DNA from: Polyangiaceae bacterium
GTDB lineage: Bacteria; Myxococcota_A; Polyangia; Polyangiales; Polyangiaceae
NCBI GenBank assembly: GCA_050287085.1
Contig: JBNKBE010000004.1
Location: 128,288-192,287 of the forward strand
Length of the DNA: 64,000 nucleotides
Reading direction: 5' to 3'
Part shown: positions 16,890 through 24,025 of the stretch, one piece after another
Numbering within the stretch: position 1 is the stretch's first letter
Layout of the letters: every line of letters starts with the position of its first letter
Position numbers and translations under genes: made by a program
The notes under the pieces: generated by a model
The model's input: the letters and a program-made list of their open reading frames with translations, nothing else
What the model was told of the DNA's origin: nothing
Database searches by the model: none

Positions 16890-17177
16890 GCGCACGCGGC
16901 CCGACGTTTGGGGCGTGCAGATCGGCTCAAGGTCGAGCGCCTGGGGAACGCTATTGGCCGCCTCGCGCGGGGGGGATCGCAGCGTGCCGTGGGAAGGTGG
17001 GCGGCGGTAGGGGCTAGCACAGCAATTGTGTAGCAAGGGTGAAACCCAGATCTCCGTCGCGCGACTGGGGTGCGAGCGCGGATTACAATCGACGCGTGGC
17101 CCTCGACCGTGTAGACGGCCCTGAACTAGACTTTGCGAGCCCTTGTGGGGACACCGCTCGCTCTGATGAAGGACTTG

Positions 17178-19664
17178 ATGATGAACGACAGATTTAGACT
17201 GCTGCTGCTGCCGTTGCTTTGGCTGAGCGCCGCGGCGCTCGCGTTCGGCTGTAGCACGGACGCAAAGAAGGCTGACGGCGACGGCCCAGGCTGCCCGAGC
17301 GAGTACAGCTTGTGCTCGACGCCGACTCAGGACCAATGCGTCAACTTGCAGCTCGACGCCAAGAACTGCGGCAGCTGTGGTCAGCAGTGTGGTGCGGGCC
17401 AAGTCTGTAGTGCTGGTCAGTGCGCGTGTCCGGTGGGCAAAGAGCTCTGTGGAGATACGTGTGTTGACATTGCAATAGATCCGAACAACTGCGGCGTCTG
17501 CGGAAAGTCCTGCGCAGCGGAGGGTGCCAGCTTCTGCTCTTCGGGCGCGTGCACCAACGAATGTGGAGCGCCCAACAGCATTTGCGCCAGCGGGGCTACG
17601 GCGTTGTGCGTCGACCTGCAATCGAGCGTCGACAACTGTGGCGGCTGCGGAAAGACCTGCGGCGGCGCCCAGAGCTGTAGTGCGGGTAGCTGCGCGTGCG
17701 CCGACGGATCACCGGCGTGTGGTGCTGAGTGCTGCGGCGCTGGGCAAGAGTGCAACGCCGCGGGTACGGCCTGTGTGGCGGTCAGCGCAAACGGTGGCGC
17801 TGGCGGCGGCGGCGGCGGCAACGGCGGCGGCGGGATGTCCAACGGCGGAATGTCCAACGGCGGAGCCGCTCCAAAGCCCGTGGACGACCGCGAATGCCCT
17901 GCGGCCAGCGACGGCGTGATCGTCGACTTCGAAGAAGGCTCAGCGGCGGTGTTGCCGCTCGAAGGTCGCCAAGGCGCCTTCGAACCCTACGGCGATCCGG
18001 ATGGCACCTTTTCCGTCGCTGAGATCGAAGAAGAGGGCGCTGAAGCCTGCAATAAGGGGGTTTTTCACGCCGCGGGCTCGGGGTTCAGCACCTACGTGGG
18101 CGTGGGTACGACCTTTGCCTCCTCCGGGGTGGTGGACGAGGAATACGTACCCGTTCAATACGACGCGAAGTCCCGGGGCTACGTGGGGGTTGCCTTCCGC
18201 GCCAAGGCCGGGCCGCAACAACAAGGCCCGGTTCGTATCAGCTTGTCCATTCCTTCATCCGAGGGTGAGCCTCACGGGGACGGCACCTGCGGGACGGACG
18301 AGGGCGAGCAATGCTGGAACCACTTGGGGCATTTTCTCATCGACGACGAGGCTCTCGGCTCCGAGTGGAAAGACTACACCTTGTGTTTCGATGATCTGCA
18401 CACGATGTGGGTGCCCGGTACCGTGCAGCCACCCGCGCGCGCCAAGCTGCCGGAGCAACTGCTGAAGTTCCAGGTGCAGTTCAACCAGGGTTTTGATCCA
18501 GCGACCACGAAGCAATACCCGTATTCCCAGTCTTTCGACTTCTACATCGACGACATCAGCTTCGTCAAAGACGGCTGCCCAAGGCCGTCACCCTTCGAGT
18601 CGTCACCGAATACCACACAGCCTTTCGGCAGCAATATGCCGGTGGGTACGTGCATGCCGGTGCCCAATGCGGCCGTTCATAACACGGAGATTGCCCAGGC
18701 CTACCTCCGCTGGAAGAGCACTTTTGTGGGCGCAGATGGCACCGTTTTCGACCCTGAGCAGGGCAACCGCGTCATCTCCGAAGGCATCGGCTACGGCATG
18801 TTGTTGTCCGCCGCGATGGGTGACAAGGAGCTTTTCGACCGGATCTGGGGTTGGGCGGAAGGCAAGATGGGGGGCGGCTTGCTCGGTTGGGACAATGGCA
18901 ACTCGGGCTCAGGCTCCGCTACCGACGCTGACACCGACATGGCGTACGCCTTGTACATGGCCGATCACCAGTGGGGGGGCTACGCGGCCGCAGCCGCTGA
19001 CCTTGCGACCAAGGCGGCCGCAGCAGATCTCGATGGCACCAACCTGAAGGCGGGTAGCCAATTCAACGCGGGCAACCCAAGTTACTTCTCTCCCGGCTTC
19101 TACCGCAAGCTCGGTGGCGCGTGGGCGTCGGTGGTGGGCCCGGGTTATCAGTGGATGGATTCCTGCGACAGCAGCTTTGGCGGGGGTCAGAACGGCATCA
19201 TCTCCGACTGGTGTGACTTCGGTGGCAACGCCGTGTCATCATCCTCCACCGGGGCCAACGTCACGAGCGAGACCTGTCCCAATAGCGGCGAGGCATGCTC
19301 CGCCTACGACGCCTCGCGGATCCCTTGGCGGGTGGGTTATGACCTCTGCTTCAACGCCCAAGGAGCAGCGCTGGCCGCGCGCATGGTGCAAACCTATCAG
19401 GACCGTTTTCAACGCTTGGACTTGGCTCAGGCGGGGATCAGTCCCAGTGGTAGCCCCTACGAGGATCTCCAGGGAAGCGAGATGGCTGTGATCGGATCTC
19501 TGGCGGTAGCCGCTTGGGCCACCAACAACGTCGCTGCTCGTGATGTAGCGTTCTACGCAACGCTCGATATCTTGCAGCGCCCTGAGTACTACAAGACCTA
19601 TTACTCCACCACTCTGGGATTGTTGACGATGACCTTGATGACGGGCAACTGGCCCGCGCCTTAG
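17178..19664 (+). CDS. Modular lipoprotein: Cys-rich repeats, CBM-like domain, GH8 glycoside hydrolase
   Basis: FGC lipobox; D..NCGxCG repeats; Gly linker; FYIDDISF beta-sandwich end; GH8 motifs ISEGIGYGML, SATDADTDMAYAL, NPSYF, YDASRIPWRVG. Confidence 0.85.
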   Translation: MMNDRFRLLLLPLLWLSAAALAFGCSTDAKKADGDGPGCPSEYSLCSTPTQDQCVNLQLDAKNCGSCGQQCGAGQVCSAGQCACPVGKELCGDTCVDIAIDPNNCGVCGKSCAAEGASFCSSGACTNECGAPNSICASGATALCVDLQSSVDNCGGCGKTCGGAQSCSAGSCACADGSPACGAECCGAGQECNAAGTACVAVSANGGAGGGGGGNGGGGMSNGGMSNGGAAPKPVDDRECPAASDGVIVDFEEGSAAVLPLEGRQGAFEPYGDPDGTFSVAEIEEEGAEACNKGVFHAAGSGFSTYVGVGTTFASSGVVDEEYVPVQYDAKSRGYVGVAFRAKAGPQQQGPVRISLSIPSSEGEPHGDGTCGTDEGEQCWNHLGHFLIDDEALGSEWKDYTLCFDDLHTMWVPGTVQPPARAKLPEQLLKFQVQFNQGFDPATTKQYPYSQSFDFYIDDISFVKDGCPRPSPFESSPNTTQPFGSNMPVGTCMPVPNAAVHNTEIAQAYLRWKSTFVGADGTVFDPEQGNRVISEGIGYGMLLSAAMGDKELFDRIWGWAEGKMGGGLLGWDNGNSGSGSATDADTDMAYALYMADHQWGGYAAAAADLATKAAAADLDGTNLKAGSQFNAGNPSYFSPGFYRKLGGAWASVVGPGYQWMDSCDSSFGGGQNGIISDWCDFGGNAVSSSSTGANVTSETCPNSGEACSAYDASRIPWRVGYDLCFNAQGAALAARMVQTYQDRFQRLDLAQAGISPSGSPYEDLQGSEMAVIGSLAVAAWATNNVAARDVAFYATLDILQRPEYYKTYYSTTLGLLTMTLMTGNWPAP

Positions 19665-19813: not shown

Positions 19814-21358
19814 TCAGTACCAGCACACGGACAGACCGTCGAGCAGCCCCGCACCCCCACCCAGGTAGGGCCGGCACTCCCCCTCTTCGCAGGGGTCGTT
19901 GGGGGAACAAACGACGAGATCATAGAAGCCCATGTACGTATCTCGATCTGCGCATTCTTCCCGCGTGGTGCACGTGACCAGGTCGCGAACGGTGGCGCCC
20001 GTCACGTGGACGCAGCATATCTCGTCAGAATGGCAGTCACTGTGGGCATCGCATTCGACGGCGTCCGCCCCGTGCAGCGAGCCCCCCGCTTGGTGGCCAC
20101 AGGCCTCTGGTCCGTCGGTGGTGCAGAAGGGCTCTGCGCGCCTGGCGCAGCAGGTTTCCCCGGTATGGCAAACGACGTTGTAGCCTGCGTTGCAGGTGAA
20201 CGCGCCGCGCGTGTTGCGGGTGTCGAGGCAGTCACCCTCGTAGCAGAGAAAGTCACAGCTCGTATGTTCGATGACGCCTCGAACGCAGTGAGCGAGCACG
20301 CCGCCCTTCCACTCGAGATTCCAGCCATCCCACTCTGGGGGCTCACACCAGTCGGCGCTTCCAGGAATACAAGCCACACAGTCGCCTCCGTGGCATAGGG
20401 GCGCCGAGCTCGGGCAGGTCCGCGCGACCCAGGTGCCAGCGAGGCATTCGAGACGTGTGCCTTCGCCCTCACAACGCGTCGAGCCATTGTCGCACACGCA
20501 GCGCCCTTCCACTGCGTCGCAGAGGGGGGTTGTGTCCTCGCAGGTGGCTACAGCATTCCAGCTCCCGCTTTCGCATCGTTCAAGGCGTGGCTTGGCGAGA
20601 CCCTGGCAGCGAAATGTGCCCTCAGCGCATGCGCACGCGCCGGTCTCTTGATTGCAAATCGGCGTGTCGTTCGAGCAAGGGGCTTGGGCAACCCACCGGT
20701 CATCGCGGCACACTAGGGGTGTTGTGCCCGAGCATCGAGTGGACAATCCGGCCTCGGTGCTGCACTCAACACAACTCGATCCCTGGCATACGGGCGTGCT
20801 CCCCTCGCAGGCGCTGGCCTGGAATTCCCCGTATTCGTTGCAGGTCTCGACAGCGCTCAGATCTGCGGAGCACTGCTCTTGGCCCGCAGAGCAGGTGCCG
20901 CAGGTTCCGGTGGCCGTCAGGCACACCGGGCTCTTGCCCTCGCAGCGCTCGGCGAGTTCATAGCTTCCGTCGGCGTTGCACTCGTAGCTCGCAGCGCTTC
21001 GGCAGATCGGCGGCGACTGGCCCGGCTCACATTCTAGGCACCGCGTGCCCCCGCAGAAGGGGGTGTCTTTGGGGCAGGTCATCGTTTTCCATCGGCCCTC
21101 GGCACATACCCGCAGGGTTGCTGGATCAAGGCAAGTCTTGTCGCTGGGGGCGCACGTTGCGCCGGCGTCTCGGACCCAGGGCGTACCGGCGTCGCTGGGT
21201 TCATTGCGAATGCGGCCTGGGCCAGCGTCCGCGGCAGCGTCTGCTGGGGTGAGCGTTTCTGTCCACTCAAAGGGACCTGGATCGCACGCCAGCGCAGCCA
21301 GAAGCCCCAAGGGCCAGGCCGCGAAGGCCGGCAATAGGTGAAGGGAACGCACGCTCAT
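19814..21358 (-). CDS. Cys-rich repeat lipoprotein
   Basis: ATG 21358 overlaps the PAAR stop (ATGA); LAALAC lipobox; ~40-aa repeats C..G..C....L..C..G.W....C...TP.C. Confidence 0.8.
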   Translation of the reverse strand: MSVRSLHLLPAFAAWPLGLLAALACDPGPFEWTETLTPADAAADAGPGRIRNEPSDAGTPWVRDAGATCAPSDKTCLDPATLRVCAEGRWKTMTCPKDTPFCGGTRCLECEPGQSPPICRSAASYECNADGSYELAERCEGKSPVCLTATGTCGTCSAGQEQCSADLSAVETCNEYGEFQASACEGSTPVCQGSSCVECSTEAGLSTRCSGTTPLVCRDDRWVAQAPCSNDTPICNQETGACACAEGTFRCQGLAKPRLERCESGSWNAVATCEDTTPLCDAVEGRCVCDNGSTRCEGEGTRLECLAGTWVARTCPSSAPLCHGGDCVACIPGSADWCEPPEWDGWNLEWKGGVLAHCVRGVIEHTSCDFLCYEGDCLDTRNTRGAFTCNAGYNVVCHTGETCCARRAEPFCTTDGPEACGHQAGGSLHGADAVECDAHSDCHSDEICCVHVTGATVRDLVTCTTREECADRDTYMGFYDLVVCSPNDPCEEGECRPYLGGGAGLLDGLSVCWY

Positions 21359-21735
21359 GGGCCGATGAGAACGCTTGGGCAGCCGGCGATGACGCGGCCG
21401 CCTTGGCTCGTCGAATCGTTCTGCCGTGCTGCGGGCTTGCCGCCGATCAGAACCGACGAAGACCCTGTTATGATGGTGTCCTGGCCGTGGGTGCAGCCTG
21501 CCTGATCGCCGAGCCGCGCTGCGGGTTTGCCACATAGAAGAACGCGTGGGTCGCCCGTGAGCACGGGCCCTGCGCCACGCGGAACCGGGGTAGGGACCCC
21601 CAGCGGGCCAGATACGACGTGAACGCCACCGCAAGTGTGGGCGTCACCAACGCGAGCGGCTGGCCCGCTGCTGGAGGTGGCGGTGGCGGTGAGTAGGGCG
21701 GCAAGTGCAAGCCAAAAAACGTGTTTGGGCGTCAT
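21355..21735 (-). CDS. PAAR-domain spike-tip protein with N-terminal signal peptide
   Basis: Three PAAR motifs (GPAARVGD, KPAARLGD, KPAARQND), ends SVLIGP; N-terminus MTPKHVFWLALAALLTATATS; AAGGAAG SD. Confidence 0.93.
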   Translation of the reverse strand: MTPKHVFWLALAALLTATATSSSGPAARVGDAHTCGGVHVVSGPLGVPTPVPRGAGPVLTGDPRVLLCGKPAARLGDQAGCTHGQDTIITGSSSVLIGGKPAARQNDSTSQGGRVIAGCPSVLIGP

Positions 21736-21746
21736 AGCACTTCCTT

Positions 21747-22118
21747 TCAGTTCAGCTTGATGAGGCCGCCGCGTACCTCAACCAACGACTGGCCCCGGAG
21801 TTCAAGGGTGGTGCTGGCTTCGACCTGCAGCTTTGAGCCGGCGTGCAGCTTGGTTTCCGCACCGGACTCCACCTTGAGGTGTCGCCCAGCCTTCAGTGTT
21901 AGGTCGCGTCCGGCCTCGATGGTCAAGGAATCGCCCTGAATCATCAGGAATCGGCGCAGTGTCGCATTCTCCTCTTCCAGTCGAGCCACCCGACTCTGCA
22001 GGGCGACCAATGCCGGATCGGAGGGGGTGGGACGCCCAGCGATCCGCGGCGCCGCTCCGGCCACCGCCGCCGCTGCCAAGGCCAAACAAAAAGTTCCGAC
22101 GACTGCCGATCGCATCAT
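21747..22118 (-). CDS. Signal peptide + coiled coil + VgrG/gp5-like C-terminal beta-helix (mini-spike), 123 aa
   Basis: AGGAG SD before ATG 22118; MMRSAVVGTFCLALAAAAVAGA; heptad LVALQSRVARLEEENATL; seven octapeptide repeats ending GGLIKLN. Confidence 0.8.
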   Translation of the reverse strand: MMRSAVVGTFCLALAAAAVAGAAPRIAGRPTPSDPALVALQSRVARLEEENATLRRFLMIQGDSLTIEAGRDLTLKAGRHLKVESGAETKLHAGSKLQVEASTTLELRGQSLVEVRGGLIKLN

Positions 22119-22249
22119 TGACGTACTCCTCCGCTGGCCAACGTTCAGAAACGTTCGGCCCAAGGCCCCTAGGATACCCGTCAGAGGCAGGCTTGTGTAG
22201 CCCGCTCTCCAAGTAAGCCCCCAGCTAACGCCGAGAAGGAGGGCTACGC

Positions 22250-24025
22250 CTATTCGTCCGAGAGTGGGATCGGGATCCAGAACAGCTTGGCTTCGGTTTT
22301 GCGCCCGTCACGCTCGTAGCCAACAAGACCGAATAGGATATCCCACCAATGGCCGCGCCGAGTCTCGCCGAAGCCGAACGCGGGCAGGACGTGCACGCTC
22401 CAATTGTCTTTGCGCGTTGTCTTGCGCTCACGGTAGAGCACGTTGCCCATCAACTGGGTCAGGCTGTCGGGCCGCGCGAAGCGCCAGAATACCGGGAAGA
22501 CAACCGTCGTGCGCTCCGTGGGATCGTCGAAGTCGAAGAGAAGCGGCGCCAGCACGCGGTGCGAGCTCGTTCTGTCGCGCCCGAAGTAGGCGAGCGGAAA
22601 TAGGTTGAGGTTCCAACCGGTAATGCTCGTCTCGTAGTTGAATAGCGGCGTGATCCAGCGGCTGTGGGATAGACTGTGGCGCTTGAAACTGCCGTAAAAA
22701 GGGAACACAGCCCAGCTGTCTTCGCGCGGGCTTTGGTAGGAATAGTAGAACGGCAGGATCCACTTCTGGTCGATGCCTGCTGCCGGCTCGCGGTAGAGCC
22801 ACACCAAGGGCGAGAACATGTCGAGTTCTCGGCGTCCGCGGTGACGAGCGTAGCCCCACGTGGCAAAAGTCGTGTCGCCAGCTTCGCCCCGGCGGGAGAG
22901 GTAGAACGGATTAATGAAGAGCTCTGCCGACTTGTCCCAGCTGTAGTGAAAGAAAGGAAGCAGCGTCGTGCTGCGCCGATCTTTGCCCCAACTGCTCCAG
23001 TACAAAGGCATTAGGTGGAGGCTGTCGGCGTCGGGCCCGTGCTCGCGGTAGTACGGACCCCAGACATCGAGCTCGGTTTCAGCGTCGAGGTCGGCGCCGT
23101 GATAGTGCAGCAGCGGGGGGATCAGCCGGTAGTTGCTGGTGTCGTCCCGGCCGGCGAAATAGAAGGGCGCCACCCCCAAGTCTCGTTCGGTGGTCTCCGA
23201 CGAGAAGCAACCGTCACCCTTCTTCCAGGAACAGAAGCCTGGACCAAAGAGGTTGAGACCCCCCTCCGCGTCCTGGCTCATGTAGGTGAGCAGGGGCGGT
23301 ATAACTGCGTAGCCACCATCTGGGCGCGTGCCGAAAAAGTAGAGGGGAGCCAGCCAATCATCGCTCTTGCCCTGGCCGCGCCGATTCAGGAATGGACCGA
23401 CGAGGGTCGTGCGACTCTCGGCGTCACGCAGATTCCAAAAAACGGGGAAGACGATATCGTCAGCTCGCTCAGCGCTGCGGCGGTTGTAATACAGCCCGCC
23501 CCATAGCGAGGCTCTGTCGGGGACCGCTGGATCAGCCAGGCTTGGCTGCTGACGCTCAAACCACAAGGGAAATGCGGTACGCAGCTGATAGCTACCGCTC
23601 TTCTCCTGGTAGTACAGCCCGTAGAAGTCGCGCTCCGCAAACCCGCTCCGGCCCCGCTCGGCGTTGTTGTCGACGGTATCTGTGCCAAGCTGAGCGAGCA
23701 GCTCATCGCTCAAGGCCAAAGGATCCGCCGGCAAGCTCGGCTCACTGCCTTCGGGCAGCGTCGTTTGCCCGCTGCCGGATGCGGCGTGCAGTTCTGGGGT
23801 TCCCGGGGGCGCTTTGCTCTGACCTTTCCCCTTGGAGGGGCGCGCCGAACCACCGCCCGGACTTGCCAAGGGATCTTGCCCAAGGCCCGCGCCTCCAATC
23901 CCGCGATTGAAGGGGTCGTTTTGAGCCCAGGCTTGGGCTTGGGGAAGCAAGGCCCAAACCAGAGCCGACGCTGCCACGCGACAACACGCCCACCGGGAAC
24001 GCCGCAGTCGGCGGTGCTTCACCAC
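22250..24025 (-). CDS. Exported aromatic-rich beta-repeat protein of unknown function
   Basis: Signal peptide ending AQAWA-Q; many ~16-20-aa repeats with xP(L/F/V)(F/Y)(W/F/Y) cores; ends KLFWIPIPLSDE. Confidence 0.75.
   Translation of the reverse strand: MVKHRRLRRSRWACCRVAASALVWALLPQAQAWAQNDPFNRGIGGAGLGQDPLASPGGGSARPSKGKGQSKAPPGTPELHAASGSGQTTLPEGSEPSLPADPLALSDELLAQLGTDTVDNNAERGRSGFAERDFYGLYYQEKSGSYQLRTAFPLWFERQQPSLADPAVPDRASLWGGLYYNRRSAERADDIVFPVFWNLRDAESRTTLVGPFLNRRGQGKSDDWLAPLYFFGTRPDGGYAVIPPLLTYMSQDAEGGLNLFGPGFCSWKKGDGCFSSETTERDLGVAPFYFAGRDDTSNYRLIPPLLHYHGADLDAETELDVWGPYYREHGPDADSLHLMPLYWSSWGKDRRSTTLLPFFHYSWDKSAELFINPFYLSRRGEAGDTTFATWGYARHRGRRELDMFSPLVWLYREPAAGIDQKWILPFYYSYQSPREDSWAVFPFYGSFKRHSLSHSRWITPLFNYETSITGWNLNLFPLAYFGRDRTSSHRVLAPLLFDFDDPTERTTVVFPVFWRFARPDSLTQLMGNVLYRERKTTRKDNWSVHVLPAFGFGETRRGHWWDILFGLVGYERDGRKTEAKLFWIPIPLSDE

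What the first reader, a model, noticed from the sequence alone, without database searches (positions are those of the whole stretch)
21747..22118. Stand-alone spike needle lacking all VgrG base domains
Seen: after the signal peptide, a heptad pattern (L-L-V-L-N-L-L at 3/4 spacing), then strict octapeptides QGDSLTIE/AGRDLTLK/AGRHLKVE/SGAETKLH/AGSKLQVE/ASTTLELR/GQSLVEVR and terminal GGLIKLN. Established: 8-residue repeats build the T4 gp5/VgrG triple beta-helix, and G-x-x-I-x-L-N is a typical PAAR-binding C-terminus. Inference: the coiled coil replaces the gp27/OB base as trimerisation stalk, so the protein could not dock on an Hcp tube.
Basis: partly seen in the sequence, partly recalled or inferred. 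Interest (0 to 1): 0.78.

Follow-up and report, generated by a model that had tools for sequence, protein, structure and literature searches.

The report
Exported miniature phage-type needle with tip
This bacterium appears to export a tiny needle and its pointed cap, parts normally fired by phage tails or bacterial injection machines, without the tube and spring that usually drive them, which hints at an undescribed use of these parts in the cell envelope.

Summary
The minus-strand ORF 21747-22118 (123 aa) has a signal-peptide-like N-terminus, a 3/4 heptad stretch containing the R-h-x-x-h-E trimer motif, and eight-residue repeats (lag-8 identity reached by 0 of 2000 shuffles). The ten best structural matches are all central spikes of phages or injection systems, though at middling Z, and the family profile matches eCIS VgrG ends at 1e-7. 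The next gene is the genome's only PAAR, and it too has a signal-peptide-like N-terminus. The protein belongs to a scattered family (63 sequences, including Nitrospirota; 10 of 383 genomes of the host family) with two layouts: a blunt needle followed by a separate PAAR gene (7 of 8 intact blunt cases), or a needle with one PAAR-like repeat fused to its end. Neighbouring genes differ between lineages; I saw no toxin, tube or sheath gene beside it. Best reading: a Sec-exported, self-trimerising needle with a cap that works without a tube. Function is open. A hub supplied from elsewhere, as in Francisella, is not excluded.

The parts
21747..22118 (-). Mini-needle gene, 123 aa (P0001)
   Evidence: GC3 0.72, like neighbours
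22126..22132 (-). Shine-Dalgarno-like GGAGGAG, 7 nt before the ATG
22053..22118 (-). Sec-type signal-peptide-like segment, residues 1-22; cleavage after A-G-A inferred; no lipobox
   Evidence: hydropathy heuristic; inferred
22011..22052 (-). Pro/Ala-rich linker, residues 23-36; very variable in length in the family
   Evidence: alignment A1; low pLDDT at its start
21945..22010 (-). Three-heptad coiled coil L37-L58 with R-h-x-x-h-E motif (RVARLE, residues 43-48)
   Evidence: helix 35-55 in the model; motif defined in PMC5940361 and PMC6173795
21750..21938 (-). Seven octapeptides plus terminal strand, gp5C/VgrG-type beta-helix, residues 61-123
21355..21735 (-). PAAR tip protein, 126 aa (P0002), 11 nt after the needle's stop, own AAGGAAG ribosome site; only PAAR found in the genome
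   Evidence: PF05488 E 9.6e-22; closest solved chain 9rce_c E 1.1e-16
21667..21735 (-). Signal-peptide-like N-terminal extension of the PAAR, residues 1 to about 23
   Evidence: similar extension in G002, G015, G363, G381, G428
19814..21358 (-). Cys-rich repeat protein with lipobox-like L-A-C, 514 aa, overlapping the PAAR stop (ATGA); probably co-transcribed here but not conserved beside other copies
   Evidence: paralogues elsewhere in the genome

Best explanation
A two-gene cassette for a small exported needle that works without a tube. Inferred steps: each chain crosses the inner membrane by Sec and loses its signal peptide; the short coiled coil sets three chains in register, as periplasmic coiled coils do for trimeric porins; the octapeptides wind into a gp5C-type triple beta-helix; one PAAR caps the hydrophobic blunt end. 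In most relatives three fused single PAAR-like repeats make the cap instead. The product would be about 40-45 kDa and roughly 10 nm long (my estimate from residue counts and recalled geometry). With no spring, no cargo domain and no toxin neighbour, it most likely acts as a rigid pointed stud in the periplasm or at the surface, held or pushed by an envelope partner that grips its N-terminal stalk, in cell contact or antagonism. Shown: sequence anatomy, fold-level kinship, gene pairing, purifying selection. Inferred: export, trimer, capping. Guess: the role.
Confidence: 0.58

Rival explanations
1. Split spike: the needle is one part of a larger device whose hub and driver are encoded elsewhere, as Francisella VgrG uses PdpA. 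The coiled coil would plug into that hub.
For: Precedent in PMC5924787; weak matches to the Francisella VgrG model NF041249 (E 0.011 for P0001). G000 C10:147571-149121 encodes a gpD/gp27-like protein (PF05954 E 4.7e-7; phrog_52 E 2.2e-14) with a hydrophobic signal-like start.
Against: That protein was not found in 23 other genomes, 9 of them needle carriers. PF05954 matched 0 of G002, G015, G285. The tube and sheath genes of G000 lie in prophage-like remnants at contig ends. Cytoplasmic tubes cannot meet an exported needle.
Confidence: 0.17
2. Decoy or shield: a periplasmic spike mimic that soaks up effectors, tips or receptors used by incoming T6SS, eCIS or phage spikes.
For: No cargo or immunity neighbours seen; sporadic presence and broken copies as for conflict genes; phage P2 spike ends up in the periplasm on infection (PMC12407873).
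Against: Spike-effector contacts are specific (recalled), and a capped needle hides the surface a tip would bind. No direct evidence.
Confidence: 0.1
3. Membrane-anchored needle: the hydrophobic N-terminus is an uncleaved anchor, so the needle stands on the inner membrane on a coiled-coil stalk and acts on the cell's own envelope.
For: Uncharged stretches of about 20 residues; layout resembles bitopic coiled-coil proteins (weak DivIC matches in 6 of 37).
Against: A-x-A-type ends followed by Pro or Gln are the rule in A1; a separately anchored PAAR could not reach the far end of the needle.
Confidence: 0.1
4. Functionless relic of an eCIS or prophage spike locus.
For: Rare, patchy, some copies broken.
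Against: dN/dS below 1, strong ribosome sites, the same architecture in distant phyla, and signal-like segments on both genes.
Confidence: 0.05

Closest known systems
eCIS VgrG/gp5 spikes and their PAAR tips (AlgoCIS 7aef, Streptomyces CIS 9gtr, 9rce, Anabaena 7b5h)
   Same: Octapeptide beta-helix with the same terminal strand; spike gene followed by PAAR gene; closest solved PAAR is 9rce_c.
   Different: No gp27 hub or OB fold; signal peptide and coiled coil instead; no tube, sheath or baseplate genes seen nearby.
Francisella T6SS VgrG (164 aa) with PdpA
   Same: Needle lacking gp27 head and OB fold (PMC5924787); weak profile match.
   Different: That protein sits in a T6SS locus with a dedicated hub; no signal peptide is mentioned in the passages read. 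Here there is a signal-like start and no T6SS in the genome.
Phage spikes with fused tip (P2 gpV, Mu spike)
   Same: Trimer whose own C-terminus forms the point, as in the fused family members.
   Different: Those have an OB fold and an iron-binding HxH apex (PMC12407873 introduction); most fused members here have no Cys and few His after residue 30 and the tip resembles one PAAR repeat.
Periplasmic trimeric coiled coils of FapF, DcaP, ScrY porins
   Same: Signal peptide, linker, short coiled coil with R-h-x-x-h-E or Gln layers (PMC6173795); a relative's coil matches a BBP2 porin N-terminus at 14 of 16 residues.
   Different: A beta-helix needle follows instead of a barrel; a 16-residue coiled-coil match can be convergence.

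Membership tests
Canonical VgrG / gp27-gp5 spike | gp27-like hub and gp5 OB fold | tested here: not met
   123 aa fully accounted for by other parts; no PF05954 or PF04717 match
Canonical VgrG / gp27-gp5 spike | C-terminal 8-residue beta-helix repeats with blunt terminal strand | tested here: met
Canonical VgrG / gp27-gp5 spike | Intertwined trimer that binds one PAAR | not testable with these tools
T6SS component | Hcp tube and TssB/C sheath encoded in the genome | tested here: not met
   no PF05638 or PF05943 match in G000, 96.8% complete
T6SS component | Cytoplasmic assembly, no signal peptide | tested here: not met
   signal-like N-termini on both genes by heuristic; not confirmed by a dedicated predictor
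eCIS component | Cluster with gp19-type tube, sheath, baseplate genes | tested here: not met
   flanks are a core 559-aa gene and a Cys-rich protein; tube genes lie on other contigs in prophage-like remnants
Francisella-type split VgrG | Separate hub protein (PdpA-like) that co-occurs | tested here: inconclusive
   one candidate in G000 only, 0 of 23 other genomes; PdpA itself not searched
PAAR repeat family (partner gene) | Three PAAR repeats, PF05488 above cut-off | tested here: met
   77.4 bits against cut-off 27
PAAR repeat family (partner gene) | His/Cys metal site at the tip | tested here: inconclusive
   C35 and C81 are invariant in 8 of 8 aligned; two His conserved in relatives are replaced in P0002; no structure made
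Bactofilin or autotransporter head | Best sequence or fold match | tested here: inconclusive
   not among the rows listed; spikes rank first

The most novel reading that the evidence does not exclude
The puncturing tip of contractile injection systems has been domesticated as a free-standing, Sec-exported needle of about 10 nm, used across several phyla by an envelope machine that is not a contractile tail (for example pushed by a pilus or type II piston, or seated in an outer-membrane partner). The family would also keep side by side the two stages of tip evolution: three fused single repeats and one free three-repeat PAAR.
Probability: 0.3. Interest if true: 0.88.

Novelty: new variant of a known kind. 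Interest (0 to 1): 0.68.

Why it matters
Spike and PAAR proteins are understood as parts assembled in the cytoplasm on a tube. A pair that both carry export signals, recurs in unrelated neighbourhoods and occurs in a genome with no tube found implies a use of the needle outside that paradigm. It is small and soluble enough to test at once, and the fused and split layouts give a natural test of how the three-repeat PAAR tip relates to trimeric spike ends. It also warns that an orphan PAAR gene is not evidence of a T6SS or eCIS.

Full report
Observation. The finding is a minus-strand ORF at 21747-22118, 123 aa, with a GGAGGAG site 7 nt upstream and GC3 of 0.72, like its neighbours. The octapeptides are as quoted; their lag-8 periodicity was reached by 0 of 2000 shuffles. 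The heptad L37-L58 is as described and is helical in the AlphaFold2 monomer (H35-55, mean pLDDT 82.4). It contains RVARLE, an R-h-x-x-h-E motif with the hydrophobic residues on core positions; this motif is described as a trimerisation motif in PMC5940361 and PMC6173795 (passages read). The signal peptide is judged by a hydropathy heuristic only.

Partner. Eleven bases downstream lies a 126-aa PAAR (PF05488 E 9.6e-22), the only one found in this 96.8%-complete genome. It has a hydrophobic N-extension before the first repeat, whereas ordinary PAARs of related genomes at L005, L010, L011, L018, L019 and L023 start at the repeat. A 514-aa Cys-rich protein with a lipobox-like start overlaps the PAAR stop but has paralogues elsewhere and does not follow other copies.

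Family. A search of 1.84 billion representatives gave 104 hits at E 0.001; I chose by eye the query, one genome relative and 33 short hits with the coiled-coil architecture for alignment A1 and left out VgrG ends and repeat proteins. A1 found 33 proteins at 1e-5 among 8000 scored, 28 of them new and near full length, one labelled Nitrospirota; the Atlas's nearest cluster is an unnamed 178-aa cluster, commonest Nitrospirota (0.91). The heuristic finds a signal-like start in 60 of 63, against 2 of 11 VgrG-like controls. R-h-x-x-h-E occurs in 27 of 35 A1 members; the 28 others mostly have a Gln-rich coil (5 of 28 with the motif). By eye 8 of 35 A1 members end bluntly, 2 have a few extra residues, and 25 carry an extension, as do 28 of 28 of the second set. 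The extension aligns to a PAAR repeat (hhalign E 9e-5, probability 59; PF05488 in 7 of 37 at E 0.05; PAAR chain 9rce_c E 0.0022). Three such ends in a trimer would stand in for one three-repeat PAAR; this is inference.

Genomic context. In the host family (a same-family record is titled Polyangiaceae), 20 of 383 genomes matched A1 at 1e-12. Ten have the signal-coil-needle layout: G000, G002, G015, G016, G285, G363, G381, G390, G428, G530. One (G031) has another exported N-terminus, one (G070) is a prophage spike, and eight match only the needle part in long frames; I read one of those eight (G575), an ordinary eCIS VgrG. Of 8 intact blunt needles, 7 are directly followed by a PAAR, 6 of these with a signal-like extension; G530's has none, and G016 has no PAAR neighbour. 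G285 is fused and stands alone; G390 is cut short; G363's PAAR is split by an insertion element. Flanks differ between lineages (G002 and G015 are near-identical). I saw no toxin, immunity, tube, sheath or baseplate genes there, judged by reading ORF starts; only G000's neighbours were scanned against Pfam. In G000 the cassette follows a core gene present in 16 of 17 congeners; 0 of the 15 loci read carry it within 1.5 kb downstream. dN/dS is 0.41 (few changes) and 0.32 for needles, 0.06 and 0.31 for PAARs; the G002/G015 PAAR extension shows 4 silent and 0 replacement changes.

Machinery elsewhere. G000 has no Hcp or VipB match. Its two gp19 tubes, sheath and OB fold lie in prophage-like remnants beside genes I take for tape measures (that label is recalled). 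Across ten needle genomes gp19 matched in 6 and Hcp in 3; G428 (91% complete) has neither, nor an OB fold. One result cuts against the simple reading: G000 C10:147571-149121 encodes a gpD/gp27-like protein with a signal-like start. It was not found in 23 other genomes, including 9 needle carriers, so it is not a general partner, but it is a candidate hub here. A signal-less coiled-coil needle also occurs alone in 1 of 351 Pseudomonadota genomes, so the coil-for-base swap is wider than the exported form.

Mechanism. Most likely both chains are exported by Sec, the coil sets the register, the beta-helix forms, and PAAR seals the sticky blunt end (PMC10715212 passages). Without a sheath it cannot be fired in the usual way; a pointed stud held or pushed by an envelope partner is my best guess for its role. 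A split spike, a decoy, a membrane-anchored needle and a relic are the rivals.

Literature. Eight searches (listings only) showed no paper on signal-peptide-bearing spike or PAAR genes. The PAAR survey PMC8651086 (abstract and passages) has no occurrence of 'signal' in its main text; its supplements were not read and may bear on this. Of PMC12407873 I read the introduction and passages; of PMC5924787, passages. I recall a preprint on tube-less VgrG/PAAR toxin particles; searches did not find it, so it remains an unchecked recollection, and as recalled it involves cargo toxins, which are not seen here. The library lacks most subscription papers.

Verdict. A real, conserved and apparently undescribed variant of the spike-tip module. 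Architecture well supported, export and assembly inferred, function open. Interest 0.68.

Noticed in passing
G000:C10:147571-149121 (+), locus L124:2572-4122: Orphan gpD/gp27-like protein (phrog_52 E 2.2e-14, PF05954 E 4.7e-7) with a hydrophobic signal-like start; not found in 23 related genomes. Candidate exported hub.
   Followed up: partly
L121:7589-8155 (+), G1504: Stand-alone coiled coil plus VgrG-type needle without a signal peptide among transport and metabolic genes in a Pseudomonadota genome; P0103 looks similar.
   Followed up: partly
L089:1425-2492 (+), and proteins P0090, P0146: Exported proteins with other N-terminal domains joined to the same needle and fused PAAR-like end: a wider set of exported needles.
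   Followed up: no
window 22250-24025 (-): Core gene of about 559 aa with aromatic repeats and no Pfam match, next to ruvX and mltG; present in 16 of 17 congeners at 50-60% identity.
   Followed up: partly
window 19814-21358 (-): Cys-rich repeat lipoprotein-like protein with no Pfam or PHROG match, coupled to the PAAR stop; several paralogues in the genome.
   Followed up: partly
window 17133-19664 (+): Exported protein with Stig1-like Cys-rich repeats and a GH8 domain.
   Followed up: no
L084:5372-6600 (+), G363: Signal-bearing PAAR interrupted by a transposase gene.
   Followed up: partly
G000:C24:78000-94282, C6:266600-271188, C13:6494-10626: Prophage-like remnants with sheath, gp19-type tube and tape-measure-like genes at contig ends.
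   Followed up: partly
L119 (MT836410.1): A record deposited as a bacteriophage holds an ordinary bacterial VgrG locus; probably host DNA.
   Followed up: no
L081:7008-8258 and L082:6879-8189: Phage proteins of about 420 aa ending in a similar single-repeat tip, next to a very large gene; possible phage counterpart of the fused tip.
   Followed up: no
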